Position numbers and translations under genes: made by a program
The notes under the pieces: model-generated
The model's database searches: none
What the model was told of the DNA's origin: nothing
The model's input: only the letters and a program-made list of their open reading frames with translations
Shown here: positions 41,138 to 64,000 of the stretch, one piece after another
Position numbering within the stretch: position 1 is the first letter of the stretch
How the letters are laid out: the number at the start of each line of letters is the position of its first letter
Assembly (NCBI RefSeq): GCF_022846255.1
Contig: NZ_AP025682.1
Origin: Escherichia coli
Lineage (GTDB): Bacteria; Pseudomonadota; Gammaproteobacteria; Enterobacterales; Enterobacteriaceae
Direction: 5' to 3' (one strand)
Length of the DNA: 64,000 nt

Positions 41138-41149
41138 GAGCATCTCCAG

Positions 41150-41680: not shown

Positions 41681-41689
41681 CACGCCCCC

Positions 41690-44326: not shown

Positions 44327-44391
44327 TATTCCTCCGGTTTAAATCACCCGGCAGTCAATTCTTTTTATTCAGGCGAAAAAATCCCCCTGCG

Positions 44392-45117: not shown

Positions 45118-45153
45118 TGTCCTGTTCCTGTTATCACATTATCTGCTGAACAA

Positions 45154-45693: not shown

Positions 45694-45757
45694 CGTTATT
45701 TTTATCGCACAAGGGTGGGCATCCCTGCCCGTAATGACGTCCCTGAACCTGGGTAGG

Positions 45758-46312: not shown

Positions 46313-46431
46313 ACTGCTTTCCTTTCAAAAAACTATTTCTAAATCGACATGGGCAGTCGTTCTGTACACTTTGTTTTGTCAACGAGTTTGACTGCCAACA
46401 CTGCACAGTTTTCCCCCAAAAGATGAAACAT

Positions 46432-46745: not shown

Positions 46746-46792
46746 TTGTCTTGTATTTATTTATTTTTTAAGTTTATTATCAATAAGTTAAA

Positions 46793-47389: not shown

Positions 47390-47866
47390 AATAGTAGTAC
47401 TCCTGACTGAGATATATTTGAATGAATACCTATAGGAAACCTCAATCGGTCAAAATTAGCCCAATAGATAAAAAGATAACCACACACGAAGTGATGTGGC
47501 TATCAGTCAATTACATTAAATATCATACAAAAATAAAATATCACTGATGTGACAACATCTATTTTCATTGATTTGATTCAATATAACAATAGATTGCAGT
47601 GGATTAACTTCCAGTTGCTTAAAAAATAAAGAAAAAAGTATGAAAACAGGCGAATTTAAGTGATGTGTAAATTTATGAATGATTTTGTTTATTTATTTTG
47701 AAGAACATAAACCATTGTATTTTGTATGGATATGGTTAACTTAATGTTTATTATGATAATTAAGAATCATACTTACAATAACATCAATTAATAAATGGTT
47801 AATCATTTTTGATATATCGTAAGAATAATGTAGTTTTTAACACCATCCCTGGTATCTCAACTATCT

Positions 47867-48469
47867 CTATAAAACAGCGTGACGCTGTCGTCCTCTGGCT
47901 CTATCCCAGATGCCGTAAAAACGCCCTGCATTGCTGGCGGTATACCAGACAGTATGACGAATATTGCGATGTCCAAGATAATCCTGGATAAGTCGCGTAT
48001 CTATTCCCATATTCGCCAAAGCAAAACCACACGAATGGCGTAACATGTGCGGATGAATCTCCAGTGACAACCCGGCATTACCACCGGAAGTCGAGATAAT
48101 ATGGTAAAACTGTTGCCGAGAAAGTGGATTCCCCTTACGTGATAAAAATACCCACTCGCTCTCAGCATGCGGATAAGAAGTACGGATACTCAACCAGTTT
48201 TTTAAAGCCTGAATTTCTTTGTTCAATAGCGGGTGCGTTGTTGAAAAGCCTTTTTTTAATCGATGGATATATATACACTTTGCCTTAAGATCAATATCCG
48301 AAATCCTCAATCGGCAAATTTCACTCGCCCGGAAACCATGAATAAAACAAAGTAATGTCAGACAATAATTACGTGCAGCATGAGGCCCGGTATTTGCTGC
48401 TTTAAGGAGTGATTCGATTTCACTATGGGTCAGGAAGTTCCTTTTTTTGTTATCAGCCTTATTCTTCAT
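47867..48469 (-). CDS. fimB: Tyrosine site-specific recombinase (bidirectional fimS inversion)
   Basis: 200-aa paralogue of FimE. Confidence 0.95.
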   Translation of the reverse strand: MKNKADNKKRNFLTHSEIESLLKAANTGPHAARNYCLTLLCFIHGFRASEICRLRISDIDLKAKCIYIHRLKKGFSTTHPLLNKEIQALKNWLSIRTSYPHAESEWVFLSRKGNPLSRQQFYHIISTSGGNAGLSLEIHPHMLRHSCGFALANMGIDTRLIQDYLGHRNIRHTVWYTASNAGRFYGIWDRARGRQRHAVL

Positions 48470-49494
48470 CGTTTTCCCTTATAATTACAGACGCGCACTA
48501 GCTGTGCTGGGTTAGCAATAATCCAACATTTTAATCCTGATTATGTTTATAAAAGCGAACGTTTGCTTAATAACTAACGTAAGTGGACCAGTTCTTCTGA
48601 GTGAACTTAAATGGAGTAGCGATAGTTACTTATAATAACTTTGCCATACAAACGCCATGCTCTTGCATGCTATGTATCTTTATATATTTATCAATCTGAT
48701 ACGAATCGAATAATAACCCTCATCATTAATGCAACTAATCTTATCTATATATCATGTGATATGTTCTGTAACAAGTAAAATCAACATAAAAAATTCAGCA
48801 AAATTTAATATTTGTTCAACTAGCCGTCTCACATATGACATTATTAGTCAACTGCATTTGCCACAAAATGGCTATTTCATGGAACACAGTAATTTCTTAG
48901 TGGCTATTATCATGCTAATGCTTAGGTCCCTAGCGATTATTCCTGCCTGGTTCGTCAGCTTACGCCATGAGATTGTTACATTCCTTTTTCAGACTGTGTA
49001 TTTCCTGGAGATATGGGGGAACGCAGGAGACGCTTTTTCATCTACATTCGTTGGTAAATATGGCTTTGGTCACTGCGACTTAAACCTTCCTCAATCACAG
49101 CTATTCGCCGGGCGATACGGCAAACAAACTATCTGAAACATCATCCTGAAAACACCAACATCTACAAGCCTTTCCAGATCGACTTCAGGGATGACCACTT
49201 ACAAGCCAAAAACCAGGAAACATATTTCATGATGAGAATTATGATCAGCCTGATGGCGGGTAAACACTTATTTTCACCACGCTCACTGAGTTAGCTTGCA
49301 AAGCTTCCCTTGTTTAGACCCTAAATAAATCATTTATAAAACAAATAGTTAAAAGAATGCCTTTAGTTTTTGAAGACCACCTCAAGTGTTCGTCTGGCTT
49401 CACATGGCATCTTCCTCTTAGAAAAAGATCGACATATTTTGTGACACGAATTGCAAATCTCGTTTTGTTGTATGGATTGCGTGATTTTTGATCT

Positions 49495-49509
49495 GGTATA
49501 ACAGGTATA
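49495..49509. promoter_or_regulatory. NanR-type operator: tandem GGTATA repeats (GGTATAACAGGTATA) in the fimB-nanC intergenic region
   Basis: Two exact GGTATA hexamers spaced by 3 nt, followed by a degenerate third (GGTGCA); NanR is known to bind GGTATA repeats controlling nanC and fimB. Confidence 0.55.
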
Positions 49510-49933
49510 AAGGTGCACCGCGATAGTCAATGAGACAGGGCATCTCGCAATCTATGGCAAACATCACTTCAGTTCTTTCTCATCGGGTGATGAAAACGCA
49601 CTTCAGTCTGAAAGGAATATGAAAATGAGATCAACAGACACTCTATTTTATGACTCTGGGTAAAATGGATTGAGTAAGTGATATAGCTTACAAACATTCA
49701 AATCAATTAAACATCAGAAGAGATTTTATACTCAGGTATTTAATCTGGTTCTCTGTTTATTTAAATAATGTGGAAAGAGAATTTTCACAGGAGACCTTAT
49801 ACAAAAAATATAAAATACAGCTACTCGTTGCCAAAGACACTATAAGCCTGGCAAAAAATATTACACAACATAAATGCTAATTGTTTATGCGGGCTTTGTA
49901 TTGCTTTCTGTATCCTACAAATGAGTGAAATAT

Positions 49934-50650
49934 ATGAAAAAGGCTAAAATACTTTCTGGCGCATTATTACTGTGCTTTTCGTCACCACTGATTTCTCAGG
50001 CTGCGACACTGGACGTACGTGGTGGATATCGTAGTGGAAGCCACGCCTATGAGACTCGACTCAAAGTCAGTGAGGGATGGCAAAATGGATGGTGGGCAAG
50101 TATGGAAAGTAATACCTGGAATACCATTCATGATAATAAAAAGGAAAATGCCGCACTCAATGATGTTCAGGTGGAAGTTAATTACGCGATTAAACTTGAT
50201 GATCAATGGACGGTGCGCCCGGGAATGTTAACGCATTTTAGCAGCAACGGCACACGCTACGGACCCTACGTAAAACTGTCCTGGGACGCGACAAAAGATC
50301 TTAATTTTGGCATTCGCTATCGTTACGACTGGAAAGCTTACCGACAACAAGACTTATCCGGTGATATGTCTCGTGATAACGTTCATCGTTGGGATGGATA
50401 TGTCACTTACCATATTAATAGTGATTTCACCTTCGCATGGCAAACGACGCTATACAGCAAACAGAACGATTATCGCTATGCAAACCATAAGAAATGGGCG
50501 ACGGAAAATGCATTTGTTCTACAATACCATATGACGCCCGATATTACGCCATACATAGAATATGACTACCTTGACCGTCAGGGTGTTTACAACGGCAGAG
50601 ATAATTTATCGGAAAACAGTTATCGCATTGGTGTGTCATTTAAACTGTAG
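49934..50650 (+). CDS. nanC: N-acetylneuraminic acid outer-membrane channel (KdgM-family porin)
   Basis: Signal peptide MKKAKILSGALLLCFSSPLISQA and beta-barrel-like sequence; an alternative GTG start at 49925. Confidence 0.9.
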   Translation: MKKAKILSGALLLCFSSPLISQAATLDVRGGYRSGSHAYETRLKVSEGWQNGWWASMESNTWNTIHDNKKENAALNDVQVEVNYAIKLDDQWTVRPGMLTHFSSNGTRYGPYVKLSWDATKDLNFGIRYRYDWKAYRQQDLSGDMSRDNVHRWDGYVTYHINSDFTFAWQTTLYSKQNDYRYANHKKWATENAFVLQYHMTPDITPYIEYDYLDRQGVYNGRDNLSENSYRIGVSFKL

Positions 50651-50669
50651 TAGACAGGAGACAGTCACA

Positions 50670-51776
50670 ATGAATAAAACAATAACAGCGCTTGCTATCC
50701 TAATGGCTTCATTTGCCGCAAACGCGTCTGTATTACCGGAAACTCCTGTGCCATTTAAAAGTGGTACCGGAGTAATTGATAACGACACTGTCTACATTGG
50801 TTTAGGTAGCGCTGGTACGGCATGGTACAAGCTGGATACACAGGCCAAAGATAAAAAATGGACAGCGTTAGCTGCATTCCCTGGCGGACCGAGAGATCAA
50901 GCAACCTCTGCATTTATTGATGGCAATCTGTATGTGTTTGGCGGCATTGGCAAAAACAGCGAGGGCTTGACTCAGGTATTTAATGACGTACACAAATACA
51001 ACCCCAAAACCAATAGCTGGGTTAAATTGATGTCGCACGCGCCGATGGGCATGGCGGGCCATGTGACTTTTGTACACAACGGCAAGGCTTATGTTACTGG
51101 CGGTGTTAACCAGAATATCTTCAATGGCTATTTTGAAGATCTCAACGAAGCTGGAAAAGATTCAACCACTATAGATAAAATCAACGCCCACTATTTTGAC
51201 AAAAAAGCAGAAGATTATTTCTTCAATAAGTTTCTGTTGTCTTTTGATCCCTCTACACAGCAATGGAGTTACGCTGGCGAATCTCCCTGGTACGGAACGG
51301 CTGGTGCGGCGGTTGTGAATAAAGGTGATAAAACCTGGCTTATTAATGGCGAAGCCAAACCAGGATTGCGAACGGATGCCGTATTTGAACTTGATTTCAC
51401 CGGTAATAATTTAAAATGGAATAAGCTTGCTCCCGTCGCATCACCAGATGGCGTCGCTGGCGGTTTTGCAGGCATGAGCAATGACTCACTTATATTTGCC
51501 GGAGGGGCCGGATTCAAAGGTTCACGAGAAAATTACCAGAACGGTAAGAACTATGCGCATGAAGGCCTGAAAAAATCATATAGCGCTGATATTCATCTTT
51601 GGCATAACGGGAAATGGGATAAATCAGGCGAATTATCGCAAGGTCGGGCCTACGGAGTATCATTGCCCTGGAATAATAGTTTATTAATTATTGGCGGTGA
51701 AACTGCAGGCGGCAAAGCGGTGACGGATTCAGTTTTGATTTCTGTGAAGGATAATAAAGTCACAGTACAAAACTAA
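50670..51776 (+). CDS. nanM: N-acetylneuraminate mutarotase (Kelch-repeat beta-propeller)
   Basis: ATG at 50670 with an aggaga SD; signal peptide MNKTITALAILMASFAANA; the track ORF extends upstream to 50562. Confidence 0.9.
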   Translation: MNKTITALAILMASFAANASVLPETPVPFKSGTGVIDNDTVYIGLGSAGTAWYKLDTQAKDKKWTALAAFPGGPRDQATSAFIDGNLYVFGGIGKNSEGLTQVFNDVHKYNPKTNSWVKLMSHAPMGMAGHVTFVHNGKAYVTGGVNQNIFNGYFEDLNEAGKDSTTIDKINAHYFDKKAEDYFFNKFLLSFDPSTQQWSYAGESPWYGTAGAAVVNKGDKTWLINGEAKPGLRTDAVFELDFTGNNLKWNKLAPVASPDGVAGGFAGMSNDSLIFAGGAGFKGSRENYQNGKNYAHEGLKKSYSADIHLWHNGKWDKSGELSQGRAYGVSLPWNNSLLIIGGETAGGKAVTDSVLISVKDNKVTVQN

Positions 51777-51840
51777 CGCTTCAGGGCCCCGGTAAAGGGG
51801 CCCTGCTATCAATTTGTCATTTGTATTACGCGAAAATTAT

Positions 51841-52821
51841 ATGAACGCAATAATATCGCCCGATTATTACTATGTTCTTACCGTTGCTGGTCAGTCTAAT
51901 GCCATGGCGTATGGCGAAGGACTACCATTACCGGACAAGGAAGATGCGCCTCATCCCAGAATTAAACAATTAGCGAGATTTGCGCATACACATCCCGGAG
52001 GCCCGTCATGTCACTTTAACGACATTATTCCACTGACTCACTGCCCACACGATGTTCAGGATATGCAGGGTTATCACCATCCTCTGGCAACGAATCATCA
52101 AACACAGTACGGCACCGTTGGCCAGGCACTGCATATAGCACGGAAATTACTGCCCTTTATTCCTGATAATGCAGGGGTTCTCATCGTTCCGTGTTGCCGT
52201 GGCGGATCGGCTTTTACCGCGGGCAGCGAAGGGACATATTCAGAACGGCACGGAGCCAGCCATGATGCTTGTCGTTGGGGAACGGATACTCCGCTGTACC
52301 AAGATTTAGTCAGCAGAACGCGAGTCGCACTGGCAAAAAATCCGCAGAACAAATTCCTCGGCGTATGCTGGATGCAAGGCGAATTTGACTTAATGACCAG
52401 TGACTACGCGTCACACCCTCAACACTTTAATCATATGGTTGACGCCTTTCGTAGGGATCTAAAACAATACCATTCTCAGCTTAATAAAATTACTGACGCG
52501 CCGTGGTTTTGCGGCGATACCACCTGGTACTGGAAAGAAAATTTCCCTCATGCGTATGAAGCTATTTATGGCAATTATCAAAATAATGTTTTAGCCAATA
52601 TTATTTTCGTCGACTTCCAGCAACAAGGTGCAAGAGGACTGACGAACGCGCCTGATGAAGATCCAGACGATTTAAGCACGGGATATTACGGTTCAGCGTA
52701 CCGGTCACCGGAGAACTGGACGACGGCACTGCGAAGCAGTCATTTCAGCGCGGCAGCCCGTCGGGGGATTATTTCTGACAGGTTTGTAGAAGCAATTTTG
52801 CAGTTTTGGCGCGAAAGGTGA
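51841..52821 (+). CDS. nanS: 9-O-acetyl-N-acetylneuraminate esterase
   Basis: Product begins MNAIISPDYYYVLTVAGQSNAMAYGEG... (SGNH-like esterase motif). Confidence 0.9.
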   Translation: MNAIISPDYYYVLTVAGQSNAMAYGEGLPLPDKEDAPHPRIKQLARFAHTHPGGPSCHFNDIIPLTHCPHDVQDMQGYHHPLATNHQTQYGTVGQALHIARKLLPFIPDNAGVLIVPCCRGGSAFTAGSEGTYSERHGASHDACRWGTDTPLYQDLVSRTRVALAKNPQNKFLGVCWMQGEFDLMTSDYASHPQHFNHMVDAFRRDLKQYHSQLNKITDAPWFCGDTTWYWKENFPHAYEAIYGNYQNNVLANIIFVDFQQQGARGLTNAPDEDPDDLSTGYYGSAYRSPENWTTALRSSHFSAAARRGIISDRFVEAILQFWRER

Positions 52822-52874
52822 GCGTTCATTAATTTGATTTATTCGCATCCATCAACGCTTTTAACTGCTCCGGC

Positions 52875-53626
52875 GTGCGGCACTATAATGGTTTTCACAA
52901 CAAGGAGCCATTTTCTTATACCACTTTCAGAGACCATCCGCTTATGCCACCGCCCTCTACGCAACTGTTTGCAGAGCACCTTCCCACCGAGTGGATACAG
53001 CACCTCCTGACGCTTTCTGCTCATGCGACCATTTGTCGTCTTAACCTGAGCGCGGATGGCGAAGCGGGGATTAGCCTGCTGGCCCGCAGCGCTGTCACCC
53101 AGGAGCGCCAGCGCGTGGGGGCCCCCTGGTGGAATGGCTCTTCCGCCAGACCGCACAGACATGGGGCGCGGAACGTTACCTGAAGGATGACTGGCACGGC
53201 CTGCAACTTTTTGCCATTGATGGCGCACAGTTCAGGACACCTATGAACCTGAGTTGCGCGAATATTATGGCTCTGCCAACACATCCACTGAGCGGCAGAG
53301 CGCCTACCCGGTCATGCGTCTGGTGGCGTTAATGAATCTGGGAATCACATTCTGCTGAATGCCATGACCTCGGCCTACCGGCGGAGCGATACAGCGTGAG
53401 GCAACTAAAGCGGCGTCAGAAATCAGCTTTAAGTTCGCATTCCAGTTTATCGTGACAGAAATGATAGTGCAGGGAAATACGGCGTCACCAGGAACCATCC
53501 CGAAACGGCTGGAGCATCTGCGGGGTGCTCTGGAAGCGGTGTTCCCACGACTATCAAGGCCGAGGGCTGTTAAGGTATCAAAAACCCGTTATCCGGTGAA
53601 ACACAGTGCCGCCCCGCTTAAGTGAC
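52875..53626 (+). mobile_element. Degenerate IS4-family transposase remnant (frameshifted, internally deleted; no intact DDE core)
   Basis: Three frames carry stretches resembling the IS4 transposase N- and C-terminal regions (SAVTQERQRVG; TAQTWG...LQLFAIDGAQFRTP; AYPVMRLVALMNL; AVFPRLSRPRAVKVSKTRYPVK), interrupted by stops. The comparison is from memory of IS4 InsG. Confidence 0.55.
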
Positions 53627-53794: not shown

Positions 53795-54445
53795 ATGAAT
53801 ATCCGTCAATCATTACATGACCGAATCTATGCAGAATACCCTCAACAGGCTAAAGATATATTACTGTATTTCCCCACTTATGAAATTATGCCATCGACCA
53901 TAAAAATGGTTATGATTAATGAGGTGGTAGCTATAACACCGCAAGAAGATTTTTATACACCAGAGTCTGGTTATTTTACGACTGTCGCCCGACAGTTAGC
54001 GCTGGCTGGATTATCGGCAAGTAGTGGCGAAGTCTTACTCAACCATGGTATCTACCTGACCTCCGCACTGAAACTACCTAAAACACAGATCACAGCCACA
54101 CCCGCGGAGATCATTCTCTGGTCACCTATTGTAGAATGGGAGCTCGAACTCTTTGCCAATATAAAAGTTATTTTCGTTGGCGGCGATATCGCGCGAAAAT
54201 GCCTTAACATCATCGCGAAAAAGCAAACACGTAAACATGCCATCCCTTCAACTCCGACGTACAAACTGATGAATAGCGAATTAGTCTGGAAAGGAATAAG
54301 CATACTTCCTGGATATATTCTTACCGGAAAAAACCTGCTCATTGAAAAGTCAAAAATCGAAATGAATGTCGAACAATTAAGAAAAGGAATTGCGATTTAT
54401 CGCAATAGTAACAGTAACCATACGAATAATTCAGTTCATGAATAA
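53795..54445 (+). CDS. Hypothetical protein (216 aa) in an AT-rich islet; possible distant uracil-DNA-glycosylase-like fold
   Basis: ATG at 53795; clean 216-codon ORF in a markedly AT-rich segment between the IS4 remnant and the helicase operon. The order of conserved-looking blocks is reminiscent of UDG-superfamily topology but without a canonical GEGPG motif. Confidence 0.5.
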   Translation: MNIRQSLHDRIYAEYPQQAKDILLYFPTYEIMPSTIKMVMINEVVAITPQEDFYTPESGYFTTVARQLALAGLSASSGEVLLNHGIYLTSALKLPKTQITATPAEIILWSPIVEWELELFANIKVIFVGGDIARKCLNIIAKKQTRKHAIPSTPTYKLMNSELVWKGISILPGYILTGKNLLIEKSKIEMNVEQLRKGIAIYRNSNSNHTNNSVHE

Positions 54446-54958
54446 GAGATGAATCATTAATAACAAGAAATCACTGACAAACCACCTGTAAAAGGTCAAT
54501 CATTTTAGTTCAATTTCCTTTGTCATGATTATATTTTTATCGTCCTGACGATACTATTAACAATTACAATATTTATACCCTCCCCTGAACAAACAGAAAA
54601 GAACTCATACATTCGTTTATAATTCTGGTAATCCTGGCATCATACGTTTAAAATTTAAGGTGTTTGTTTTATAATCATGATTCCAAAGACTATTGGTCAC
54701 CAGAAAATGCCAGCCTTTTCGTGCCAGCTATATTTGTCCAGTGTGTTACCCCATCCAAAAATCATCCACATCCTGATGTTACGTTAGATATAGAGAAAAC
54801 AGGTTGTACTGTGCAATATGCTAACCGCATAAGCGAATATAATTTCTAAGCTGATATTGTCTGGCTGTTGGGAGCTAAACAATATAAATATCGCCAGTTG
54901 CCAGAACGGTTATATAGACCAGGAGCGTTTCGGCTCCTGGTCTGTTTCGGACATATTA

Positions 54959-57073
54959 TCAATCAGCCACTAATAGCGGACTAGGGATACCAGATGATGA
55001 AACAAACAGCCCTTTTACGGCACGGGTTGCAGCCACATGCAGTAACGCGCGCTCATTAAATAATGCATCACGCTGTTCAACGGGATCATCGGATGCTAAT
55101 GCTTTTATTTCCGGCACAACGCCTTCGTTAATCCCCACCAGGAACACATACTGGAACTCAAGCCCTTTAATACGGTGCATCGTTGCAACTCGCACGCCTG
55201 GGCGTTCATCGCTGTCACCGCTATCATTGCCTAAATTAAATGTCTCAATTCCGGCGTCATTGAGTGCTGATGCGTAGCGGTCGCAAGCATGTTTAGTACG
55301 CGCAGTAATGCAGATATCCTGAGAACGAACCTGACTCGCCAGCAATGCCTGAATTTGCTTGACGAGTGTTGCAGCCTCTTCTTTGAAATCTGCCGCATGC
55401 GTAATCATGGGCTTTTCCCCGTGCAGTAATGACAAATAATCATTACTGGTATCCGCTTCGCCATCGAGGTTATCAACCTTCACACCAGTTAACAGCCCAA
55501 CAGCAAATTGACGCGTCTCTTCTGTGGTCCGATAGTTAATCTTCAATTTTTTACTGCGACGACCACGGACGTTAATACCACACTGACCAAGAACGACCTT
55601 ATTGCGATAAATACGCTGATGCCCATCCCCGACAATAAACAGATCGTTGGGCGACTCGGGAACCAGGCTGCGAATAAGAGTAAATGCCGGGGCACCGATA
55701 TCTTGAGCTTCATCGACGACAATACTGCTATAAGGTAGTTGGACCTGCTTTTCTTTAAACAGAACAATAGCCTCATGCATGGCATCGCCCATTTCGCGCA
55801 GTTTGGCACGCGCCATTTGTGCTCTGAATTCTTCGAAAACTGGCCAGATTTTCGCCCGTTGAATACGGGATAACGCTGTACCACGTCCAACCCGGCTGAC
55901 TTTGAGGTATTCCTCCCGGGTGTAAACCGCATTTGGCTGGACAACGCGTTGCCACTCTTCAGCATAGAAATTGTCAGGTAGCCCCAGTTCGGCAGGTGCC
56001 TGCTGCAAGGCATAGTTCCAGCATTTACGTCGCCCTTCATCGCTGTCGTATACCACGCGGAAATCATAACCGTGGCGTTTTAGTTGGTCGCTCATCCAGG
56101 CATCAATGTTAACGACGTCAATACGCGCCATCTCTTCTCGCGTACACAACCGCTGGAGATTAGCGCGAATATCTGCCGCCAGGTTACGCGTAAAGGTCGT
56201 GAAAAGTACCTTCTTACCGGGTTTATCTGCCAGACGCTGAGATAACCACCGCGCACGGTGCATTGCAACAACCGTTTTCCCTGTACCTGCACCGCCCAGT
56301 ACTCGTACCGGACCATTAGCGGGCGACTCCACCAGTTTTCGCTGGCTCGGATGCAGAAATACACGCCATTTTTCTAAAGGCGCATTAAGCATCTGCAACA
56401 GCTCCTGTTCATTTTCAACGACATGGAAGCGACGTTTACTTCGTTCAATCGCCTCCATAAAGTCGTTGGTATCAACAGGCTCGTCACGATGATCGTTAAA
56501 CTCTTCCAGCACTTCCTGGTAATCCAGCCCTTCTGCCAGCCAATGCAGGGGTTCCCAGGCTTCTGCTGGCATTATGCTTTCAAGTTGATTAAGCCCGGCT
56601 TCATCGGTAAGCGCCATCACCTGATCAATAAAGACAGGCGGCACACCCAGGGCCAGAATCTGTTCCGCGCTGTAAGCTGCGAAGAGTTTCGGTTTATCTA
56701 GCACCGTTTCCGCCGCCGGTTTGATATAGCTAATATCAATAACCTGAATTGCGCCGGTAACCGGGTGAATTGAACAATCATGCCGCCGCGCCCAGTCGTA
56801 TGCTTCGTCGTGTTTATCCACCCACATCAGCATATACAGGGCACCCTGTTCAGGTTTCAGAACAATGCCGCGATAAGTTTGATCGATTCGCACCGAATGG
56901 ACATTTTTACTGCGCGCATCGTGGATCTTTTCATAGTTAAGTCCATTACTGGTCGGGTCCTGACGGAATTTGGAGATGAATTCCTGCACCTTTTTTTGCT
57001 GTGCTTTTGGGATCCGCGCGAATGCGCCCAGAAAACCATCAGAAAGTGCCACCTTGGGCGTTTGCACCGTCAT
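54959..57073 (-). CDS. UvrD/Rep-family (SF1) helicase, 704 aa, with an uncharacterised ~230-aa N-terminal domain
   Basis: Walker A GGAGTGKT (aa 260-267), motif II IVVDEAQDIG, motif III-like VGDGHQRIYR, C-terminal TMHRIKGLEFQYVFLVG. Its start ATG overlaps the stop of the 2113-aa gene by 4 nt (57070-57073). Confidence 0.8.
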   Translation of the reverse strand: MTVQTPKVALSDGFLGAFARIPKAQQKKVQEFISKFRQDPTSNGLNYEKIHDARSKNVHSVRIDQTYRGIVLKPEQGALYMLMWVDKHDEAYDWARRHDCSIHPVTGAIQVIDISYIKPAAETVLDKPKLFAAYSAEQILALGVPPVFIDQVMALTDEAGLNQLESIMPAEAWEPLHWLAEGLDYQEVLEEFNDHRDEPVDTNDFMEAIERSKRRFHVVENEQELLQMLNAPLEKWRVFLHPSQRKLVESPANGPVRVLGGAGTGKTVVAMHRARWLSQRLADKPGKKVLFTTFTRNLAADIRANLQRLCTREEMARIDVVNIDAWMSDQLKRHGYDFRVVYDSDEGRRKCWNYALQQAPAELGLPDNFYAEEWQRVVQPNAVYTREEYLKVSRVGRGTALSRIQRAKIWPVFEEFRAQMARAKLREMGDAMHEAIVLFKEKQVQLPYSSIVVDEAQDIGAPAFTLIRSLVPESPNDLFIVGDGHQRIYRNKVVLGQCGINVRGRRSKKLKINYRTTEETRQFAVGLLTGVKVDNLDGEADTSNDYLSLLHGEKPMITHAADFKEEAATLVKQIQALLASQVRSQDICITARTKHACDRYASALNDAGIETFNLGNDSGDSDERPGVRVATMHRIKGLEFQYVFLVGINEGVVPEIKALASDDPVEQRDALFNERALLHVAATRAVKGLFVSSSGIPSPLLVAD

Positions 57074-60000
57074 TTGTCACCTCCGGACAGATGTTGCAAT
57101 GTATTTTCGTCAATTGGCCCGAATGCTACGTGCCAACCCCTGGTTGTGAATAATGGAATAAATTCTTGATTATCAATAATCAATGCCCATTTTTGTGATG
57201 GCCAGGCGAGATCGGCTTCCGCAATAATTTCCCCCTCATCATTTTGCAATTCGTAGCCGAGAGTCGGCGCAGAGAGAGAATGAGACTGAAGCAACGCGAT
57301 CTCTTCAGCGCTTAATAAGCCAAACTCAATAATCTCAGCCCAACTCTCATCAGTCTCTGGTACTGCCTCTGGCGTTGCCGAAACTTTAGTGTCAACGCTT
57401 TCCTGCGGTAAATGCACGGCTTTACGGCTGGTAAAGGTTATATCCGGCAGGAACTGTAACAGGTTTACCAGTCGCCAGAAGCCATTGAGTCCCGCTTCAT
57501 AACCGTCATCCTGCGTATAGCGATCGTCAAAACAGATATGCAAACGCAGCCAGCTGCGCATTTGTGCGACACTGGTCGTCGGTTTAATGGCTTGTTGTGG
57601 CAACACCGAAGCCAGCTCAATAAATTGCTGCGATGAGTTACAGCTATCGAGTAAACCACCAAAGACAAACGGTTCGTCTGGCAAAAGCTCTGCTAGCCGC
57701 CAGGCTGGCGCGTTTTCCTGCATTTCATAGGCATACTTTTGTTTCGTTCCCGCGTCCTGTGACTTCTTCACATCCAACCACACCCAGGCATGTGCAGCAG
57801 CCATTTTCTGCCATAACTGCGTTCTTCCTCCCGGATCGGCGAGATAATCCAGCAGCAGTGCAAAACTGTTGCGTTCCCGGAACGACGCTTCAAGGGCCGC
57901 AAAGTTGGTATCGTGAAACAGGTTATAAAACTTAGGCTGTTTCATATCCGGGTTATGCCCAAGCCCCAGGACATCCTGAACATGTTTAAGCCCAGGCTCT
58001 TTGAGATCGGCCCACGTGACTGTCCACACCCAGAAATTATCGCTATCCCGAATCGCCTGGCGTTTTTGCACATCCTCTGCGACGCTATTTTTGTGAAACG
58101 CAAAGCCATCAAGGAAAATAGCTACCGGTTTAATGGCATCAGACTGCATAAGCGGATATAGCACGTAATCCGGGCGACAAGGGATCCCCACCGCCTCTTT
58201 AGCGCCTAAATCCACCTGAGCTTTAAGATGCCAGCTCATCATCGGTTCGCTGCGGGTGTTAATAATCCACCCAGCGCCCTGATGCGCGTAACTGCGACTG
58301 ACAATCAGGTTTTTATTTTCTTGCAGGCAGCTAATAAACCGTTTTTCCAGCTCACTGCCCATCATGGCTTCGAGGGAAATGTTTTTGATGGAATCAATTA
58401 CCCGTATCGAATCTCTTGCCTGCAAAATTTTCGCCAGCAAGAGACGCGCCTGATCGCGGGAGACATACTTCATGCGCCCACGGTCACGGTAAGCGTAAAC
58501 GCAACGATAACAACCATCTTTATGCGTATCATGGTTGCAACTGCATTCCACTATCGCCTGATAGGCCAGTTCAAGTAATTTCAGCAAATTGTCGGGAGTG
58601 CGCATCAGCTCTTTAAGAGAACCAGTTCCCCCCGGGACGGTATCGTAAATCACCAGATACTGCCGCCAGGATTCGCCTTCATTTTCCGGCTCGCGGTACA
58701 CAACGCCTTTCAGGTGATCGACATTCCCCTTGAAGTAATGTTTAAGACCTAGCTGGATCGCCGCCCCAAGAGAAGCCTCCACGACACGGTCATTACTGTA
58801 ACTGCTTACCGGGAGCAGAATACGCAACGCTTCTGACTCCAGCTGGCGATAGAGATAGAGATAATCTTCGAACTTCGCCTTTTCGGGTTCCGTGCGATAT
58901 TTGCAGCTCAAATCATGACGGGGTTCATGATCGCGAGGACGCTGTACCATGCCGCACCCGAGGCAAACTTTAAACCCGGTTCGCTTCTTCGCTTCTCCGG
59001 CAATCATCAACTCATTGGCATCATCCGCCATTTTGCCGAAGTTGATATCCCGCAGGGTGACTTTGCTTAAAAATTCAAAACCAAACGGAACTTCGCCTTC
59101 CTCAATCGCGTATGCCGCCGATACATCTTCTTTTTCGAAACTAACCAATAGCTGACGCTGGAAGAAAGCAGGTTCACGGCTGTCGCTCTCGTCGCTGATC
59201 TGGCTATCACGTGCGCTGGCGCGGGCATACACCTGGCGAAGTTTCAGCAGCGTGGTTTTTTGTCCGGCGTCGGCCCACCCCGGTGTGCCACATTTCGGGC
59301 AATATTTATGCTGGTCGCCCGTCTGGTCGATATTTTCGCTGTAGTTACAGTGGCTACAGATACGCCAGTTCTCCGGCTCAGAGACCTTCAGGTCTATCTG
59401 CTCAATTTCAACTTTATGCCCACCGGCATAGAAATTATTCAGCGGAGCCAGCTCAGCCAGCGCCGTTGATGCCGGGCGTTCATATTCGAAAGTGGTGTTT
59501 TGATATTCACGTGCTTCCCCGCCTTCTTTACGCCGCCAGAGCACAGAACGTAACGTAATACCGGCTTCCGGGAAGGCGTAGTTAGGCAGCAGACCTTCAT
59601 CCGTGAGGAAATTCAGCGTCTGCTTATTGTTGATTTGATTGACCAGCGCCATCAGCGCCTGCCGTTCTGAAGTTAACTCGCGCATATCGCTGTCAAAGTT
59701 TTGATCGCGCGGCGCGTTCTCCAGCTTATCGATACTGCGCTTGAGTTTATCGATGCGTGAACGCAGAGATTTGCGATCTTCCACCAGCAGTTTTAACGCC
59801 TCTTCGATACGCTGCACCAGAGAGCGTTGTCCTGGCGCGCCCTGAAGATAAGACAACAACTGTTGGCGAGTTTCTGCGGCAAGATCGGGGAAGATCGCCG
59901 TAAATTGTGCAGCAATCTCCGCATGATGCTGTTCGATATATCTCAGTAAGTTATACGGAAAACCCGATTTACGCCCGAACTCCAGCTCATCCAGCATCTG

Positions 60001-63000
60001 TTTGACGTTTTTACAGATAGCGGATTCTGGTACACCGGTTTTCACCCAGTTATCCATACAAAAAGCTGCCAGCTGGCGTTCGAGAATAGCCGTTGCATTG
60101 AGGAAGACGCCAGGAGCCTGCACCTGGCCCTGCATCATCTCCAGTGGTTCTTCAAAGAAAAACTGATCGTGCGGGTTCCCTTCTGCCACGGTAATGTTTA
60201 ACGCGTTACCATCTTTACGACCGGCGCGACCAATACGCTGCAAGTAGTTGGCCTGAGCAGGTGGGACAGAACAGAGTAAAACGGTGGAAAGATCCCCAAC
60301 GTCGATACCCATCTCCAGCGTCGGTGTTGCCGACAACAGGTTGATATTCCACGGTTGGTTGCCGCGGTAGAACGATTTTTCGGTGGCTTCGCGATCTTCA
60401 CGGCTAAGCAGCCCCGTGTGTTCTGCGCCCTGCACGCGCGCGATGTCCATGTTCTCCCAACGCCAGGTCGCCGTATTGTCGACTTCCTGGTAACGACCTT
60501 CACAACGTAAAGAGAGACAAGGCGCATTACGCCACTGCCACCCTTGATCGGCCGGAGCCCGGACAACCTCACGGCAACATGAGCAATTAAGCTGAACGAC
60601 GTCACGGCTCACCACCAGCGCCGAAGGCACCAGTCCCCAGGCTTCACGCCCTTTGGTGTCAAAATCTTTTACTACTCCGGCTATTTTCAACGCCGTAAAC
60701 AGGCGTCGTAACACCGTTTCCGCAACGCTACTGATAAACAGATTATTGCCGTTACTCAGCGTGCGATTGATCCAATGCTGATACCAACTGGGGTTAGACT
60801 TCGCGCCAATCAGGCGATGGAAACCATTAATTTTTTCAAACGACGCGTAAGCCGGTTTACGCGTTTTCGGACCGATAGAAGGCATATAGCGCGAGGTACG
60901 CTCTTTTTGCGTCATCATAAAGGTCGTGCCATCACGGCGATAACTTTCGAACGCCGGATGCATAACGGCCCCGGCCTGGCGTTGATACCAGATAACCCCC
61001 AGCGCCAGGTGCGCTACCTGCTCGACGCTCACACCGGACATCTCATCACCCAGCTCTTCACAAAGCTGTTGATGCAGGGCGGTAATTGCCGGATTAAAGC
61101 GATCTTTATCCACTCCAGCAACGGCATAACCGGTGGCTTCCAGCGTACGTCCGATACGCGCGCGCAGGGTGAATTCGCTGTACACCTCCCAGTCGAGGCG
61201 CAGGGAAACCAGCTCCGGCAGATCGGAGTTCTCCGCCAGTTTGCCTTCATTTTTCAGTGTCTGATAATCATTCAGCCACTGCATATTTGGTGCGATGAAG
61301 TTCGCTGCAAAATGAGCATCGTCCGGTGAACGTTCACGCGTTTGTTGGCAAACACGCGCCGCGAACGCATCCAGCGGTAATGTCTCTTTTTCGCCAAGAA
61401 CACTGGCGATTTGCCCACGAATCATCAGCGGCCAGGTTCGGGCAGTAAAAAAGCTGGCACGATGCGCGGCGTCTTGTACCGAGTCAGAAAACGTAATCAG
61501 CTTTTTATGTTCGTTGAACTGGCTGCCATAAAGCTGGTGAATCATCACCGCCGACAGACTGGCAGCCCGTGACCCCAGAATCGAAATCCCCTGTTTGCTG
61601 TTGCAGTACGGGCATTCATTAGCAAACTCCAGCTCGTCCTTACGCTCTTTGAGCATATCTGGGATCAGTACCTGCAACAGCTCTGTATGACCACAATGTC
61701 CACACTGGACGCTGGACTGTCGGTTCAGTTTCAGGCAGGTAGGGCACAGTTTCTGGTGTGCGCCACTGACCGCTTTTTCGTTGTTATCCGGGAAAGCAAG
61801 GACGATGGAGCGCCCTTTTTCAAAGAACTGGCGATAAATGCCGTCGAGGTCTGTTTCCAGCTGAACGCTTTGCCCATGACGCAGGCTGGCCCAGCCGGTT
61901 GCGTGGCAGTCACGGCAGTGGATAACCGGCAAATAGTGTTCGCGATCTTCCACCGCCACATCATCGGCAAACACCAGTCTCGGTGTTTTCGCCACGCTGG
62001 CGACCAGACGACGCATCTCACGAAGCCACAACTGGGAGCGCAGTTGCACAAACGGCAGCACCGGGCGCGCTTTCTTCGCCTGGAGACGTTTTTGCCGATC
62101 GTGGTCCGTTTCCGGTACTTCGAGACGTGCCTGCGCGATCAGCGCCAGAATGCTTTGCAGCACGCGTCGGGCATGGTCGGCGCTTTCTGCCAGCATGACC
62201 TGGAGATTTTCCAGACACTCTCGTTCAGAGAGGATCCCGCCTTGCAGATCATGGAGTAAGACATGCATCACGCTGTGGCGGCGTAACAGTGACCCCAGCG
62301 CAATACGCTTTTCACGCCCGTCGTCGCTCTCCAGATCGTCCGGGAGTTGCAAGTCGCTGTCGGGGAACCACAAAGGGATTTGTCCGTTGAGATACGCCAC
62401 CGGGGTAGCGTAACTCTGCGGGTCCAGGGCCGAAGCGACCTCCGGCCCCGGATACTGACTGTACGCAATGGCGTAATCCTGCAAGTACTCCGCTGCCGTG
62501 TAGCGATCTTCGCGAATAACGGCGTCATCGGTAAACGGCTGGTCAAAGATTGTTTTTGCGTAATCGAGCAGTTGCCCCAGTTCGTCGCCGACGGTCGCTG
62601 ATGTCCCGACGCAGGCGAATCGTTGGTTATCTACACCTATGTGATGCTTCAGACGTCGCACCAGACAGGCCAGATCCGACCCTTGCGCGCCATCAAACGT
62701 ATGCAATTCATCCACGACCAGGTAACGCAATGAACCGGGCTGGTTGTAACGCCAGAGCGGCTGATCGCCAGGGCGCATCAGCAGGTAGTCGAGCATTTTG
62801 TAGTTGGTCAACAGGATGTCCGGCGGGCTTTCGCGCAGCGTGTGCTTACAGGTAATGACCTTTTCTGCCGACATTTTTTTGCTGGGTTCGATTTCGCTGT
62901 CGCCGACAAACAGGCCGACGGTCACCTTGCCATGCAGTTGTGGATCGCTGGCGATGGTTTTGGCGAAACGGCTGGCCTGATCGGTTGCCAGGGCGTTCAT

Positions 63001-63411
63001 CGGGTAGATGATAATCGCTTTAACCCCGGCTTGTGACGCGCCCGCGCAGTGGTTGAGCAGCGGGAACATAAAACATTCTGTTTTACCGGAGCCGGTACCG
63101 GTAGCGACCAGTGTCGGCTGTGGCGCGTCGCTTCCCAGACGCTGAAATGCCCGGGCCTGATGCGCGTGCGGCGGGAACGGCAGCGTCAGATTAGGGAAGA
63201 AATTCAGCGGTAAGTCACTTTTACAAAACGGCAACTGGGCGGAAAGGTATGGTCCTTTCAGCAGCGTTTCAGGCTGGGCCAGAAATTGCTCCAGCATTGA
63301 GACATTATCGTTATTCTCGCCGTTAAACAGCGGGCTGTTTAGCGGGAACGCCGCCCGTAAAAAGGCGGCAACGCTGTCGGCGACCTGCCGACTGACAACG
63401 GATGGCAGCAT
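57070..63411 (-). CDS. Giant (2113 aa) DEAH-box SF2 helicase with Zn-ribbon insertions, DUF1998-like Cys cluster and a Vsr/DUF559-like endonuclease motif; DruE-like (Druantia) candidate
   Basis: Walker A VATGTGSGKT (nt 63079-63105), motif II VVDELH (62701-62718), motif VI QRIGRAGR (60217-60240), several CxxC pairs, CSCNHDTHKDGCYRC cluster (about 58501-58545), and VAIFLDGFAFHK...RQAIRD...VWTVTW (about 58090-58140). Confidence 0.8.
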   Translation of the reverse strand: MLPSVVSRQVADSVAAFLRAAFPLNSPLFNGENNDNVSMLEQFLAQPETLLKGPYLSAQLPFCKSDLPLNFFPNLTLPFPPHAHQARAFQRLGSDAPQPTLVATGTGSGKTECFMFPLLNHCAGASQAGVKAIIIYPMNALATDQASRFAKTIASDPQLHGKVTVGLFVGDSEIEPSKKMSAEKVITCKHTLRESPPDILLTNYKMLDYLLMRPGDQPLWRYNQPGSLRYLVVDELHTFDGAQGSDLACLVRRLKHHIGVDNQRFACVGTSATVGDELGQLLDYAKTIFDQPFTDDAVIREDRYTAAEYLQDYAIAYSQYPGPEVASALDPQSYATPVAYLNGQIPLWFPDSDLQLPDDLESDDGREKRIALGSLLRRHSVMHVLLHDLQGGILSERECLENLQVMLAESADHARRVLQSILALIAQARLEVPETDHDRQKRLQAKKARPVLPFVQLRSQLWLREMRRLVASVAKTPRLVFADDVAVEDREHYLPVIHCRDCHATGWASLRHGQSVQLETDLDGIYRQFFEKGRSIVLAFPDNNEKAVSGAHQKLCPTCLKLNRQSSVQCGHCGHTELLQVLIPDMLKERKDELEFANECPYCNSKQGISILGSRAASLSAVMIHQLYGSQFNEHKKLITFSDSVQDAAHRASFFTARTWPLMIRGQIASVLGEKETLPLDAFAARVCQQTRERSPDDAHFAANFIAPNMQWLNDYQTLKNEGKLAENSDLPELVSLRLDWEVYSEFTLRARIGRTLEATGYAVAGVDKDRFNPAITALHQQLCEELGDEMSGVSVEQVAHLALGVIWYQRQAGAVMHPAFESYRRDGTTFMMTQKERTSRYMPSIGPKTRKPAYASFEKINGFHRLIGAKSNPSWYQHWINRTLSNGNNLFISSVAETVLRRLFTALKIAGVVKDFDTKGREAWGLVPSALVVSRDVVQLNCSCCREVVRAPADQGWQWRNAPCLSLRCEGRYQEVDNTATWRWENMDIARVQGAEHTGLLSREDREATEKSFYRGNQPWNINLLSATPTLEMGIDVGDLSTVLLCSVPPAQANYLQRIGRAGRKDGNALNITVAEGNPHDQFFFEEPLEMMQGQVQAPGVFLNATAILERQLAAFCMDNWVKTGVPESAICKNVKQMLDELEFGRKSGFPYNLLRYIEQHHAEIAAQFTAIFPDLAAETRQQLLSYLQGAPGQRSLVQRIEEALKLLVEDRKSLRSRIDKLKRSIDKLENAPRDQNFDSDMRELTSERQALMALVNQINNKQTLNFLTDEGLLPNYAFPEAGITLRSVLWRRKEGGEAREYQNTTFEYERPASTALAELAPLNNFYAGGHKVEIEQIDLKVSEPENWRICSHCNYSENIDQTGDQHKYCPKCGTPGWADAGQKTTLLKLRQVYARASARDSQISDESDSREPAFFQRQLLVSFEKEDVSAAYAIEEGEVPFGFEFLSKVTLRDINFGKMADDANELMIAGEAKKRTGFKVCLGCGMVQRPRDHEPRHDLSCKYRTEPEKAKFEDYLYLYRQLESEALRILLPVSSYSNDRVVEASLGAAIQLGLKHYFKGNVDHLKGVVYREPENEGESWRQYLVIYDTVPGGTGSLKELMRTPDNLLKLLELAYQAIVECSCNHDTHKDGCYRCVYAYRDRGRMKYVSRDQARLLLAKILQARDSIRVIDSIKNISLEAMMGSELEKRFISCLQENKNLIVSRSYAHQGAGWIINTRSEPMMSWHLKAQVDLGAKEAVGIPCRPDYVLYPLMQSDAIKPVAIFLDGFAFHKNSVAEDVQKRQAIRDSDNFWVWTVTWADLKEPGLKHVQDVLGLGHNPDMKQPKFYNLFHDTNFAALEASFRERNSFALLLDYLADPGGRTQLWQKMAAAHAWVWLDVKKSQDAGTKQKYAYEMQENAPAWRLAELLPDEPFVFGGLLDSCNSSQQFIELASVLPQQAIKPTTSVAQMRSWLRLHICFDDRYTQDDGYEAGLNGFWRLVNLLQFLPDITFTSRKAVHLPQESVDTKVSATPEAVPETDESWAEIIEFGLLSAEEIALLQSHSLSAPTLGYELQNDEGEIIAEADLAWPSQKWALIIDNQEFIPLFTTRGWHVAFGPIDENTLQHLSGGDK

Positions 63412-64000
63412 CAGGCGCTCTCCTTATCTTGTGCAAAGAACGCCCAGGCCACTTTGTAGTCGTCCTCGCGATCTGGCTTGATAAACGGAGCCTGCCAAGT
63501 GACGGTACGGCGCTCGCCTTCGTCGCTGCGGGTATAGTCATCAAAGGTGACGCTGACGGTACCGGTTTGCAGATGTTTGACATCATCCCAACCGATGGCT
63601 TGATCGGTGCAGTCACCGCCGGTCCACTCTGGGCTATCGACGTTAAAGACAAAGCCGTTTTTCAGGTCAGCTTTACGCGCGGTGCGAGGCAAGCCAACGC
63701 CCACCAGCCCTTTGCTTGGGGTAAAGATAATGCGACCGTTTTGATCGTACCAGGTATCCGCTTCGTACTGGCGCATCACCGGGAACTGTACACGGTAAAT
63801 GGTAAGCAGTTCTTCGAGGGTTAACCCCAGCGCCTGCGCCACCAGTACGTCGATTTCCACCAGCGCCTGACGGCGACTGTAGTCAGAGCGTAAGGCGCAG
63901 TTACGCTGCCACTCTGGGGTCAGATTGGTGAAGAAATCTTGTGGGAGCTGCGGGAGATCGCGGCTCCAGCGTTGGGTATTGAAGTCTGGGGTGTAGCAGG
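63411..64000 (-). CDS. Hypothetical protein, C-terminal part only (gene continues beyond the window end); candidate partner of the giant helicase (DruH-like?)
   Basis: Reverse-strand frame is open from the window edge down to the TGA at 63411-63413 (about 196 codons visible). The stop overlaps the ATG of the 2113-aa gene by 1 nt (TGATG). No recognisable catalytic motif in the visible part. Confidence 0.6.
   Translation of the reverse strand, partial: CYTPDFNTQRWSRDLPQLPQDFFTNLTPEWQRNCALRSDYSRRQALVEIDVLVAQALGLTLEELLTIYRVQFPVMRQYEADTWYDQNGRIIFTPSKGLVGVGLPRTARKADLKNGFVFNVDSPEWTGGDCTDQAIGWDDVKHLQTGTVSVTFDDYTRSDEGERRTVTWQAPFIKPDREDDYKVAWAFFAQDKESA

What the first reader, a model, noticed from the sequence alone, without database searches (positions are those of the whole stretch)
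57070..63411. Unusual architecture of the 2113-aa protein: split SF2 core, multiple Zn-ribbons, DUF1998-like cluster and a Vsr/DUF559-like endonuclease motif
Helicase motifs I-II sit at about aa 100-240, but motif VI (QRIGRAGR) is near aa 1060, so the two RecA-like lobes are separated by roughly 800 residues containing several CxxC Zn-ribbon pairs and a motif-IV-like segment (KKLITFSDSVQDAAHRA). Downstream are a coiled-coil-like stretch, more CxxC pairs, the CSCNHDTHKDGCYRC cluster (DUF1998-like) and an AIFLDGFAFH...RQAIRD...VWTVTW block that resembles the Vsr/DUF559 endonuclease fold. A helicase fused to a putative nuclease would make this the likely effector.
Basis: seen in the sequence. Interest (0 to 1): 0.7.

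Follow-up and report, generated by a model that had tools for sequence, protein, structure and literature searches.

The report
ArmC helicase-nuclease of ARMADA defence
The 2113-residue protein is ArmC, the large helicase with a Vsr-like nuclease domain from the ARMADA type II anti-phage system of E. coli; its unusual architecture is real but was described, and partly tested, in 2025 preprints.

Summary
The ORF is real: window 57070-63411, minus strand, 2113 aa. The protein is 2103/2113 identical to ECs_5263 of E. coli O157:H7 Sakai. It sits in the order armB-armC-armD next to Druantia III and Zorya II. That makes it ArmC of ARMADA type II, an anti-phage system published in 2025. In that work, loss of armC, or ArmC K110A or D234N, abolished defence.

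I confirmed these features:
- A DEAD RecA1 lobe (aa 84-278).
- Only the C-terminal part of RecA2 at aa 993-1066, with an invariant motif-IV-like strand at 636-652. RecA2 is therefore interrupted.
- Nine CxxC motifs (0.76 expected by chance), whose cysteines are nearly all invariant in 88 homologues.
- An MZB/DUF1998 domain (aa 1549-1638).

Nuclease activity itself remains untested.

One side observation may be new. The last ~95 residues form a module shared with the unassigned C-terminal extension of ZorE.

The parts
57070..63411 (-). armC coding sequence (2113 aa plus stop): YprA-family helicase-nuclease of ARMADA type II
   Evidence: ORF. 2103/2113 identical to E. coli O157:H7 Sakai ECs_5263. 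120 full-length homologues listed, 7611 proteins with E<=1e-10.
62578..63162 (-). RecA1 lobe (aa 84-278), with Walker A GTGSGKT (aa 105-111, window 63079-63099) and DELH (aa 234-237, window 62701-62712)
   Evidence: Pfam DEAD E 4e-22. K110, D234, E235 and H237 are invariant in 88 homologues. K110A and D234N abolish defence (PMC12458937).
61942..62514 (-). First inserted region (aa ~300-490). Bell et al. call it a BrxA-like helical domain.
   Evidence: No Pfam match. The domain identity comes from PMC12458937 and was not tested here.
61603..61917 (-). Zn-ribbon cluster (C499/C502, C556/C559, C570/C573, C600/C603)
   Evidence: CxxC positions. C499, C502, C600 and C603 are invariant; the other four are present in 84-85 of 88 homologues.
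61456..61506 (-). Motif-IV-like strand KKLITFSDSVQDAAHRA (aa 636-652), the probable first strand of RecA2
   Evidence: L638, F641, D643, V645, Q646, D647 and A648 are invariant. The same motif, KGIVFSDSRQDAA, lies at 830-850 of the solved DruE-type helicase 9wae, about 365 residues before its motif V/VI block.
60442..61434 (-). Second inserted region inside RecA2 (aa ~660-990), including the Cys cluster C943/C946/C965/C970 (window 60502-60585)
   Evidence: No Pfam match. The cysteines are invariant or nearly so. Solved DruE has 'INS' and 'Stalk' domains embedded in RecA2 (10.64898/2026.05.13.724313).
60112..60435 (-). C-terminal part of RecA2 (aa 993-1100), with motif V LSATPTLEMGIDVG and motif VI QRIGRAGR (aa 1058-1065, window 60217-60240)
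   Evidence: Pfam Helicase_C, model positions 40-109 only. PDB sequence matches to DruE 9tu7, 9wae and YprA 6znp.
59617..59859 (-). Helical hairpin / coiled-coil-like stretch (aa ~1185-1265)
   Evidence: The heptad scan marks only aa 1196-1233 in the whole protein. Weak coiled-coil-type Pfam hits. Bell et al. describe a finger-like coiled-coil extension after RecA2.
58903..59358 (-). OB/connector region with two more Zn sites (C1352/C1355/C1371/C1374 and C1483/C1486/H1499/C1503)
   Evidence: All these residues are invariant. The region aligns to DruE over aa 997-1662 at 23% identity.
58498..58767 (-). MZB / DUF1998 Zn-binding domain (aa 1549-1638), with C1623, C1625, C1634 and C1637
   Evidence: Pfam PF09369 E 8.5e-13. 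The four Cys are invariant. Aligns to the MZB domain of DruE 9tu7.
57988..58374 (-). Vsr/DUF559-like PD-(D/E)xK nuclease domain (aa 1680-1808), predicted active: D1748, D1768, H1773, D1780, R1784
57412..57969 (-). Middle C-terminal alpha/beta domain (aa ~1815-2000), identity unresolved
57073..57360 (-). Terminal ~95-residue module (aa 2018-2113), a degenerate Vsr-like domain homologous to the C-terminal extension of ZorE
   Evidence: PADLOC ZorE2 HMM E 5.8e-9. BLASTP to ZorE of the same island E 4e-9. Full-length alignment A4. 1560 representatives carry it, always at the C-terminus.
54959..57073 (-). armD (704 aa): GajB-like UvrD-family helicase. Its ATG overlaps the armC stop by 4 nt (ATGA).
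   Evidence: PADLOC GajB E 2.9e-36. Pfam UvrD-helicase and UvrD_C. Junction sequence.
63411..64000 (-). 3' end of armB (PglX-like DNA methyltransferase), cut by the window edge. Its TGA overlaps the armC ATG by 1 nt.
   Evidence: The frame is open to the window end. The DNA is 99% identical to E. coli genomes that annotate a 1644-aa class I SAM-dependent DNA methyltransferase there. Junction sequence.

Best explanation
The gene is armC, the YprA-family helicase of an ARMADA type II anti-phage system (armA-armB-armC-armD). It lies in the E. coli defence island that also carries Druantia III and Zorya II. ArmC has an SF2 motor whose second RecA lobe is interrupted by accessory and Zn-binding domains. 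A coiled-coil finger follows, then an OB/connector/MZB (DUF1998) 'canopy', a Vsr-like PD-(D/E)xK nuclease domain, an unassigned alpha/beta domain and a degenerate Vsr-like terminal module. Most likely mechanism (inferred): like its relatives MrfA and DruE, ArmC loads on single-stranded DNA or duplex/ssDNA junctions of replicating phage DNA. It translocates 3'-to-5' using ATP, and the Vsr-like domain cuts the DNA it threads. ArmB methylation and the ArmA and ArmD helicases would supply self/non-self discrimination and loading. Shown: identity, domain architecture, conservation of motor and nuclease residues, and (published) the requirement for armC, K110 and D234 in defence. Inferred: substrate, polarity and nuclease activity. 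I put identity at about 0.95 and the helicase-coupled Vsr nuclease mechanism at about 0.5.
Confidence: 0.85

Rival explanations
1. ArmC acts in defence as a motor only. The helicase displaces or remodels phage replication intermediates. The Vsr-like domain would be structural or regulatory, or needed only for cross-talk with neighbouring systems, and is not the DNA-cutting effector.
For: For the paralogue DruE, a truncation lacking both PLD domains still protected, and no reproducible nuclease activity was seen (10.64898/2026.05.13.724758). DISARM DrmC is dispensable against some phages (same paper). No ArmC nuclease mutant has been reported. ARMADA is non-abortive and resembles BREX/DISARM, where cleavage has not been established (PMC12458937).
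Against: The putative catalytic residues D1748, D1768, H1773, D1780 and R1784 are invariant across 88 homologues down to 39% identity, which argues for a selected chemical function. In contrast, the terminal Vsr-like module has lost them. Another group found DruE nuclease mutants (D1740A) lose both DNA degradation and defence (10.64898/2026.05.13.724313).
Confidence: 0.3
2. The protein is DruE, the signature helicase of a Druantia system, as the best PADLOC match suggests.
For: The top PADLOC families are DruE3 (E 4e-104) and DruE1 (E 9e-97). The best PDB sequence match is DruE 9tu7.
Against: The matches cover only RecA1, the end of RecA2 and the OB-MZB region. Identity to the genuine DruE encoded about 8 kb upstream in the same island is 34% over 211 aa and 23% over 719 aa, with no alignment of the C-terminus. 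There is no PLD HxK motif. The flanking genes are a methyltransferase and a UvrD helicase, not DruH. PADLOC-DB 2.0.0 (2023) predates ARMADA and, as far as my searches show, has no model for it (none appeared).
Confidence: 0.03
3. It is a housekeeping DNA-repair helicase of the MrfA/YprA or Lhr type that merely lies in a variable region.
For: Sequence matches to YprA 6znp (E 3e-20) and Lhr 5v9x. Vsr itself is a repair nuclease.
Against: It is present in only about 10% of complete E. coli genomes, inside the phage-like element SpLE6 in Sakai, and in an operon with a methyltransferase and two other helicases. Deletion sensitises cells to many phages (PMC12458937; 10.1101/2025.09.22.677730).
Confidence: 0.02

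Closest known systems
[not shown]
   Same: Same length (2113 aa) and 99.5% identity to the O157:H7 Sakai copy. Same neighbours and gene order. Same Walker A/B numbering (K110, D234). Same described architecture: YprA core, inserted Zn-binding modules, coiled-coil finger, OB-CON-DUF1998, then a predicted active Vsr nuclease followed by inactivated nuclease-like domains.
   Different: Ten amino-acid substitutions relative to Sakai. I could not confirm the published 'inactivated EEP' label for the middle C-terminal domain.
DruE of type III Druantia (E. coli EDL933, PDB 9TU7; Pseudomonas DruE)
   Same: Same YprA branch. RecA2 interrupted by inserted domains, several Zn sites, an MZB domain required for unwinding, and a C-terminal nuclease-type region. 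Encoded in the same island.
   Different: Only 23-34% identity in the conserved blocks. DruE ends in two PLD domains and pairs with DruH. ArmC ends in Vsr-like domains and pairs with a methyltransferase, an SNF2 helicase and a UvrD helicase.
DISARM DrmA + DrmB (+ DrmC)
   Same: The helicase core plus DUF1998 canopy resembles a DrmA-DrmB fusion. The system also has an SNF2 helicase (DrmD/ArmA) and an adenine methyltransferase (DrmMI/ArmB).
   Different: PADLOC DrmA matches are weak (E 1e-13 to 1e-14, RecA2 only). In DISARM the canopy is a separate protein and the nuclease is a separate PLD protein. ARMADA II adds a UvrD-type helicase.
MrfA/YprA of Bacillus subtilis (PDB 6ZNP)
   Same: Founding member of the family: SF2 core, OB, connector and the four-Cys MZB domain. 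3'-to-5' DNA translocase.
   Different: 751 aa, with a contiguous RecA2, no fused nuclease and a repair rather than defence role.
Vsr endonuclease / DUF559 / I-Bth0305I / RAP domains (Vsr-like branch of PD-(D/E)xK)
   Different: No Pfam Vsr or DUF559 match at any threshold. The residue equivalent to Vsr H64 is Asp (D1768). The domain is fused to a helicase rather than free-standing. T:G mismatch specificity is not expected.

Membership tests
ARMADA type II ArmC | YprA-family SF2 helicase core with an MZB/DUF1998 four-Cys domain | tested here: met
   Pfam DEAD, Helicase_C and MZB. YprA 6znp E 3e-20, or 6e-32 with the family profile.
ARMADA type II ArmC | Operon order ArmA (BrxHII/SNF2-like) - ArmB (PglX-like methyltransferase) - ArmC - ArmD (GajB-like UvrD helicase) | tested here: met
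   ArmD and the 3' end of ArmB are in the window, with overlapping stop/start codons. ArmA and the rest of ArmB lie beyond the window edge but are seen in genomes with 99% identical DNA. Related loci in four other taxa show the same arrangement in whole or in part.
ARMADA type II ArmC | C-terminal Vsr-type (PD-(D/E)xK) nuclease domain instead of PLD | tested here: met
   [not shown]
ARMADA type II ArmC | BrxA-like domain after RecA1, and a beta-barrel Zn module and MarR-like domain inserted in RecA2 | not tested
   The insertions and their conserved Cys pairs are present. Their folds were not modelled because both structure-prediction jobs went on the C-terminus. Domain names are from PMC12458937.
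ARMADA type II ArmC | Near-identity to an experimentally validated ArmC | tested here: met
   2103/2113 identical to O157:H7 Sakai ECs_5263. Equating Sakai with the tested O157:H7 strains NCTC 12900 and EDL933 is an inference; K110/D234 numbering agrees.
ARMADA type II ArmC | Required for anti-phage defence | not testable with these tools
   Published for the O157:H7 and ATCC 8739 alleles (PMC12458937; 10.1101/2025.09.22.677730). Not tested for this exact allele.
Druantia DruE | Adjacent Druantia partner (DruH for type III) and, for type III-A, tandem C-terminal PLD domains | tested here: not met
   The neighbours are a methyltransferase and a UvrD helicase. There is no HxK motif. The C-terminus does not align to DruE.
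DISARM DrmA/DrmB | Helicase and DUF1998 canopy on separate polypeptides, with strong DrmA profile match | tested here: not met
   A single polypeptide. DrmA matches only at E 1e-13 to 1e-14 over about 90 residues.
Vsr / DUF559 (Pfam PF03852 / PF04480) | Significant match to the family profile | tested here: not met
   No Pfam match even at E<=10 for the C-terminal half of the window protein or for a C-terminal fragment of a homologue.
Vsr / DUF559 (Pfam PF03852 / PF04480) | Vsr-like fold with the catalytic Asp and His in place | tested here: met
   [not shown]
Vsr / DUF559 (Pfam PF03852 / PF04480) | Mg-dependent endonuclease activity | not testable with these tools
   No assay was found in the papers read.

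The most novel reading that the evidence does not exclude
The last ~95 residues of ArmC are the same module as the C-terminal 'nuclease-like extension' of ZorE. Wu et al. 2026 could not assign that extension to a family and linked it to Zorya-Druantia synergy. The module is a degenerate Vsr-like domain. It also ends a ZorD-type SNF2 effector and NERD-SF1 helicases encoded next to DrmA/MZB genes. The most novel reading not excluded is that it is a shared docking or DNA-lesion-recognition module. Through it, effectors of different systems in the island (ARMADA II ArmC and Zorya II ZorE) would converge on the same partner or DNA intermediate. That would give a physical basis for the reported synergy.
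Probability: 0.15. Interest if true: 0.55.

Novelty: already known. Interest (0 to 1): 0.25.

Why it matters
ARMADA II gave the broadest protection of the systems tested in this island in EHEC and in strain ATCC 8739. About one in ten complete E. coli genomes carries it. ArmC is its largest component and the presumed effector. The finding adds no new kind of system. It does mark exactly where the open question lies: whether the invariant Vsr-like site (D1748, D1768, H1773, D1780, R1784) cuts DNA. That question matters because two groups disagree on whether the equivalent nuclease domains of the paralogue DruE are needed at all. The finding also shows an annotation hazard: defence-finder models from 2023 label this protein DruE.

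Tried and rejected

2. hhalign of the whole C-terminal alignment against E. coli Vsr gave only a 25-column, 2.6%-probability match to the terminal module. The domain-only alignment gave the informative but still weak match (20.6% probability, E 0.0011).

3. An 'excision' test joined aa 610-668 to aa 985-1110, to see whether a contiguous RecA2 match to YprA, Lhr or DEAD-box structures would be restored. It was inconclusive: only the C-terminal part aligned. The split of RecA2 therefore rests on four things: the partial Pfam match, the invariant motif at 636-652, the same arrangement in 9wae, and published DruE structures.

4. NCBIfam found nothing for the ArmB fragment or for the small ORFs at 52842-53228 and 53795-54442.

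5. I tried to separate whether the ZorE extension travels with DruE or with ArmC by counting E. coli genomes. The counts are 582, 533 and 525 of 5426. The three are almost co-extensive, so the test cannot discriminate.

6. One Pfam job went on P0124, which turned out to be an ArmC C-terminal fragment. It did confirm that Pfam has no model for any of the three C-terminal domains.

7. The DruE, DISARM and repair-helicase readings were considered and rejected (see the rival explanations).
Full report
**Observation.** Window 57070-63411 holds one uninterrupted ORF of 2113 codons on the minus strand.
- Walker A GTGSGKT at 105-111 (K110)
- DELH at 234-237 and SAT at 271-273
- KKLITFSDSVQDAAHRA at 636-652
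- QRIGRAGR at 1058-1065
- CSCNHDTHKDGCYRC at 1623-1637
- PDYV at 1747-1750, AIFLDGFAFH at 1764-1773, RQAIRD at 1784-1789, VWTVTW at 1795-1800

Pfam places a DEAD domain at 84-278. It finds only positions 40-109 of the 110-position Helicase_C model, at 993-1066, and the MZB (formerly DUF1998) domain at about 1549-1638. The protein has nine CxxC motifs where 0.76 are expected from composition, and none of 5000 shuffles reached nine. A crude heptad scan marks a single stretch in the whole protein, aa 1196-1233.

**What it is.** PADLOC (2023 models) gives DruE as the best family, but with partial coverage. NCBIfam gives only sub-threshold helicase matches. [quoted passage not shown] Its ATG overlaps the stop of the large gene by 4 nt. 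Upstream, a reading frame open to the window edge ends 1 nt into the large gene's ATG.

The 9.1-kb stretch is 99% identical to 533 of 5426 complete E. coli genomes. In strain LR-28 the annotated order is as follows:
- a truncated sialate O-acetylesterase (nanS-type) gene and hypothetical genes
- ATP-dependent helicase (704 aa)
- DEAD/DEAH helicase (2113 aa)
- class I SAM-dependent DNA methyltransferase (1644 aa)
- DEAD/DEAH helicase (952 aa)
- DEAD/DEAH helicase (2104 aa)
- STY4851/ECs_5259 family protein
- zorA2, zorB2, zorE

The same block lies at the edge of the phage-like element SpLE6 in O157:H7 Sakai. The window protein is 2103/2113 identical to Sakai ECs_5263.

This is the Zorya II - Druantia III - ARMADA II island described by Bell et al. 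2025 (PMC12458937) and by the EDL933 OI-172 study (10.1101/2025.09.22.677730). The 2113-aa protein is ArmC, the 704-aa protein is ArmD, and the truncated upstream frame is ArmB. In those papers, deleting any arm gene abolished defence, and so did ArmC K110A and D234N. Those are exactly the Walker residues found here.

**Family and conservation.** A protein search returned full-length homologues of 39-99% identity, all about 2100-2180 aa, in Gamma- and other Proteobacteria, Desulfobacterales and Calditrichota. In an alignment of 88 of them, the following are invariant:
- the motor motifs
- the motif-IV-like strand (L638, F641, D643, V645, Q646, D647, A648)
- 19 cysteines plus H1499, forming six putative Zn sites
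- D1748, D1768, G1769, H1773, D1780, R1784 and W1800

I examined four distant loci. An Aeromonas and a Desulfobacterales locus show SNF2 helicase - Eco57I-type methyltransferase ... ArmC - UvrD helicase. A Shewanella locus shows methyltransferase ... ArmC - UvrD, with the locus start cutting off anything further upstream. An Ectothiorhodospiraceae locus shows SNF2 ... ArmC - UvrD with no methyltransferase called. All four carry extra genes inserted within the operon.

**Split helicase core.** Sequence matches to solved structures cover RecA1, the last two-thirds of RecA2 and the MZB region. The structures are DruE of EDL933 (9TU7), a second DruE-type helicase (9WAE) and MrfA/YprA (6ZNP).
- In 9WAE the motif KGIVFSDSRQDAA lies about 365 residues before motif V/VI. 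In ArmC the spacing is about 385 residues.
- Cryo-EM papers on DruE report 'INS' and 'Stalk' domains embedded in RecA2 and several Zn motifs (10.64898/2026.05.13.724313; 10.64898/2026.05.13.724758).
- Bell et al. describe a BrxA-like domain, a beta-barrel Zn module and a MarR-like domain at these positions in ARMADA.

This is the standard plan of the ARMADA/Druantia branch, with known homologues. My own excision test was inconclusive, and I did not model the N-terminal half.

**C-terminal nuclease region.** An AlphaFold2 model of aa 1655-2113, built from 23 homologues, has mean pLDDT 85 and three domains.
- The output does not say which domain matched, so I modelled aa 1680-1808 alone (pLDDT 84.8).
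- hhalign aligns RPDYV...AIFLDGFAFH with Vsr residues 42-71 (D1748 = D51, D1768 = H64, H1773 = H69), with E 0.0011 and low probability.
- There is no PLD HxK motif and no Pfam match to this region.

**Mechanism.** By homology with MrfA and DruE, ArmC most likely loads on ssDNA or junctions and translocates 3'-to-5' using ATP. The invariant Vsr-like site most likely cuts the threaded DNA. ArmB methylation, ArmA and ArmD would provide discrimination and loading. The requirement for K110 and D234 is published; substrate, polarity and cleavage are inferred.

The main rival is that the nuclease-like domain is not the killing activity. One DruE study found the PLD domains dispensable and saw no nuclease activity. 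Another found nuclease mutants defective. The strict invariance of the ArmC site, set against the degenerate terminal module, favours a catalytic role.

**Side observation.** The last ~95 residues match the C-terminal part of the ZorE profiles: PADLOC E 5.8e-9, NCBIfam E 3e-4, and ZorE of the same island by BLASTP at 40% identity over 57 aa, E 4e-9. The two align end to end.
- Wu et al. 2026 (PMC13192584) report this ZorE extension in 90% of Druantia-associated ZorE proteins. They could not assign it to a nuclease family.
- A profile of the module finds 1560 cluster representatives, always at the C-terminus. Most are ArmC or ArmC fragments.
- Other carriers are a ZorD-type SNF2 protein and NERD-SF1 helicases. 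One of these helicases lies next to DrmA-like and MZB genes.
- In E. coli genomes the ZorE extension, DruE and ArmC are nearly co-extensive (582, 533 and 525 of 5426), so the primary association cannot be told from counts.

**Verdict.** It is of low interest as a discovery. It is useful as a pointer to the untested nuclease site and to the module shared with ZorE.

Noticed in passing
window 57073-57360 (minus strand; ArmC aa 2018-2113); L008:960-1250 (ZorE C-terminus): ArmC's terminal ~95-residue module is homologous to the C-terminal 'nuclease-like extension' of type II Zorya ZorE, which Wu et al. 2026 left unassigned. It looks like a degenerate Vsr-like domain. It also ends a ZorD-type SNF2 protein (P0256) and NERD-SF1 helicases (P0139, P0211).
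   Followed up: partly
L002:6955-10001, L003:5001-9989, L004:2510-9864, L005:7352-9997 and 16358-18240: In ARMADA II loci of other bacteria, extra genes sit inside the operon, between armB and armC or between armC and armD. They include a second UvrD-like helicase, a 1662-aa SACS/NOV_C protein, GmrSD plus IS elements, and AAA_15/AAA_21 ATPase pairs. Bell et al. describe the gene order as strict.
   Followed up: no
[not shown]
   Followed up: partly
window 57070-63411: PADLOC-DB 2.0.0 (2023) scores this ArmC best as DruE3/DruE1 (E 4e-104 and 9e-97). RefSeq calls it only 'DEAD/DEAH box helicase', or 'RNA helicase' in Sakai. Automated defence annotation would therefore miscall ARMADA II as a Druantia fragment.
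   Followed up: yes
L010:297-9845: A metagenomic operon encodes a 1047-aa Helicase_C protein, a 630-aa MZB protein, two proteins without clear family matches (392 and 504 aa) and a NERD-SF1 helicase carrying the ArmC/ZorE terminal module. It looks like a DISARM-like YprA system in which the module sits on a different subunit.
   Followed up: no
window 53795-54445 (+) and 54000-54999: A 216-aa ORF with no NCBIfam match lies between the nan genes and armD, and the 1-kb bin 54000-54999 that covers its 3' part and the spacer before armD drops to 38.8% G+C. It is annotated hypothetical in strain LR-28. Sakai has a partial ISCro3 remnant at the corresponding place. This is probably the decayed edge of the mobile element that brought the island.
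   Followed up: no
window 39712-52821: The rest of this part of the window is ordinary E. coli core: the fim operon (fimB to fimH) and nanC/nanM/nanS. This identifies the source as an E. coli chromosome, with the defence island inserted next to the nan genes.
   Followed up: partly
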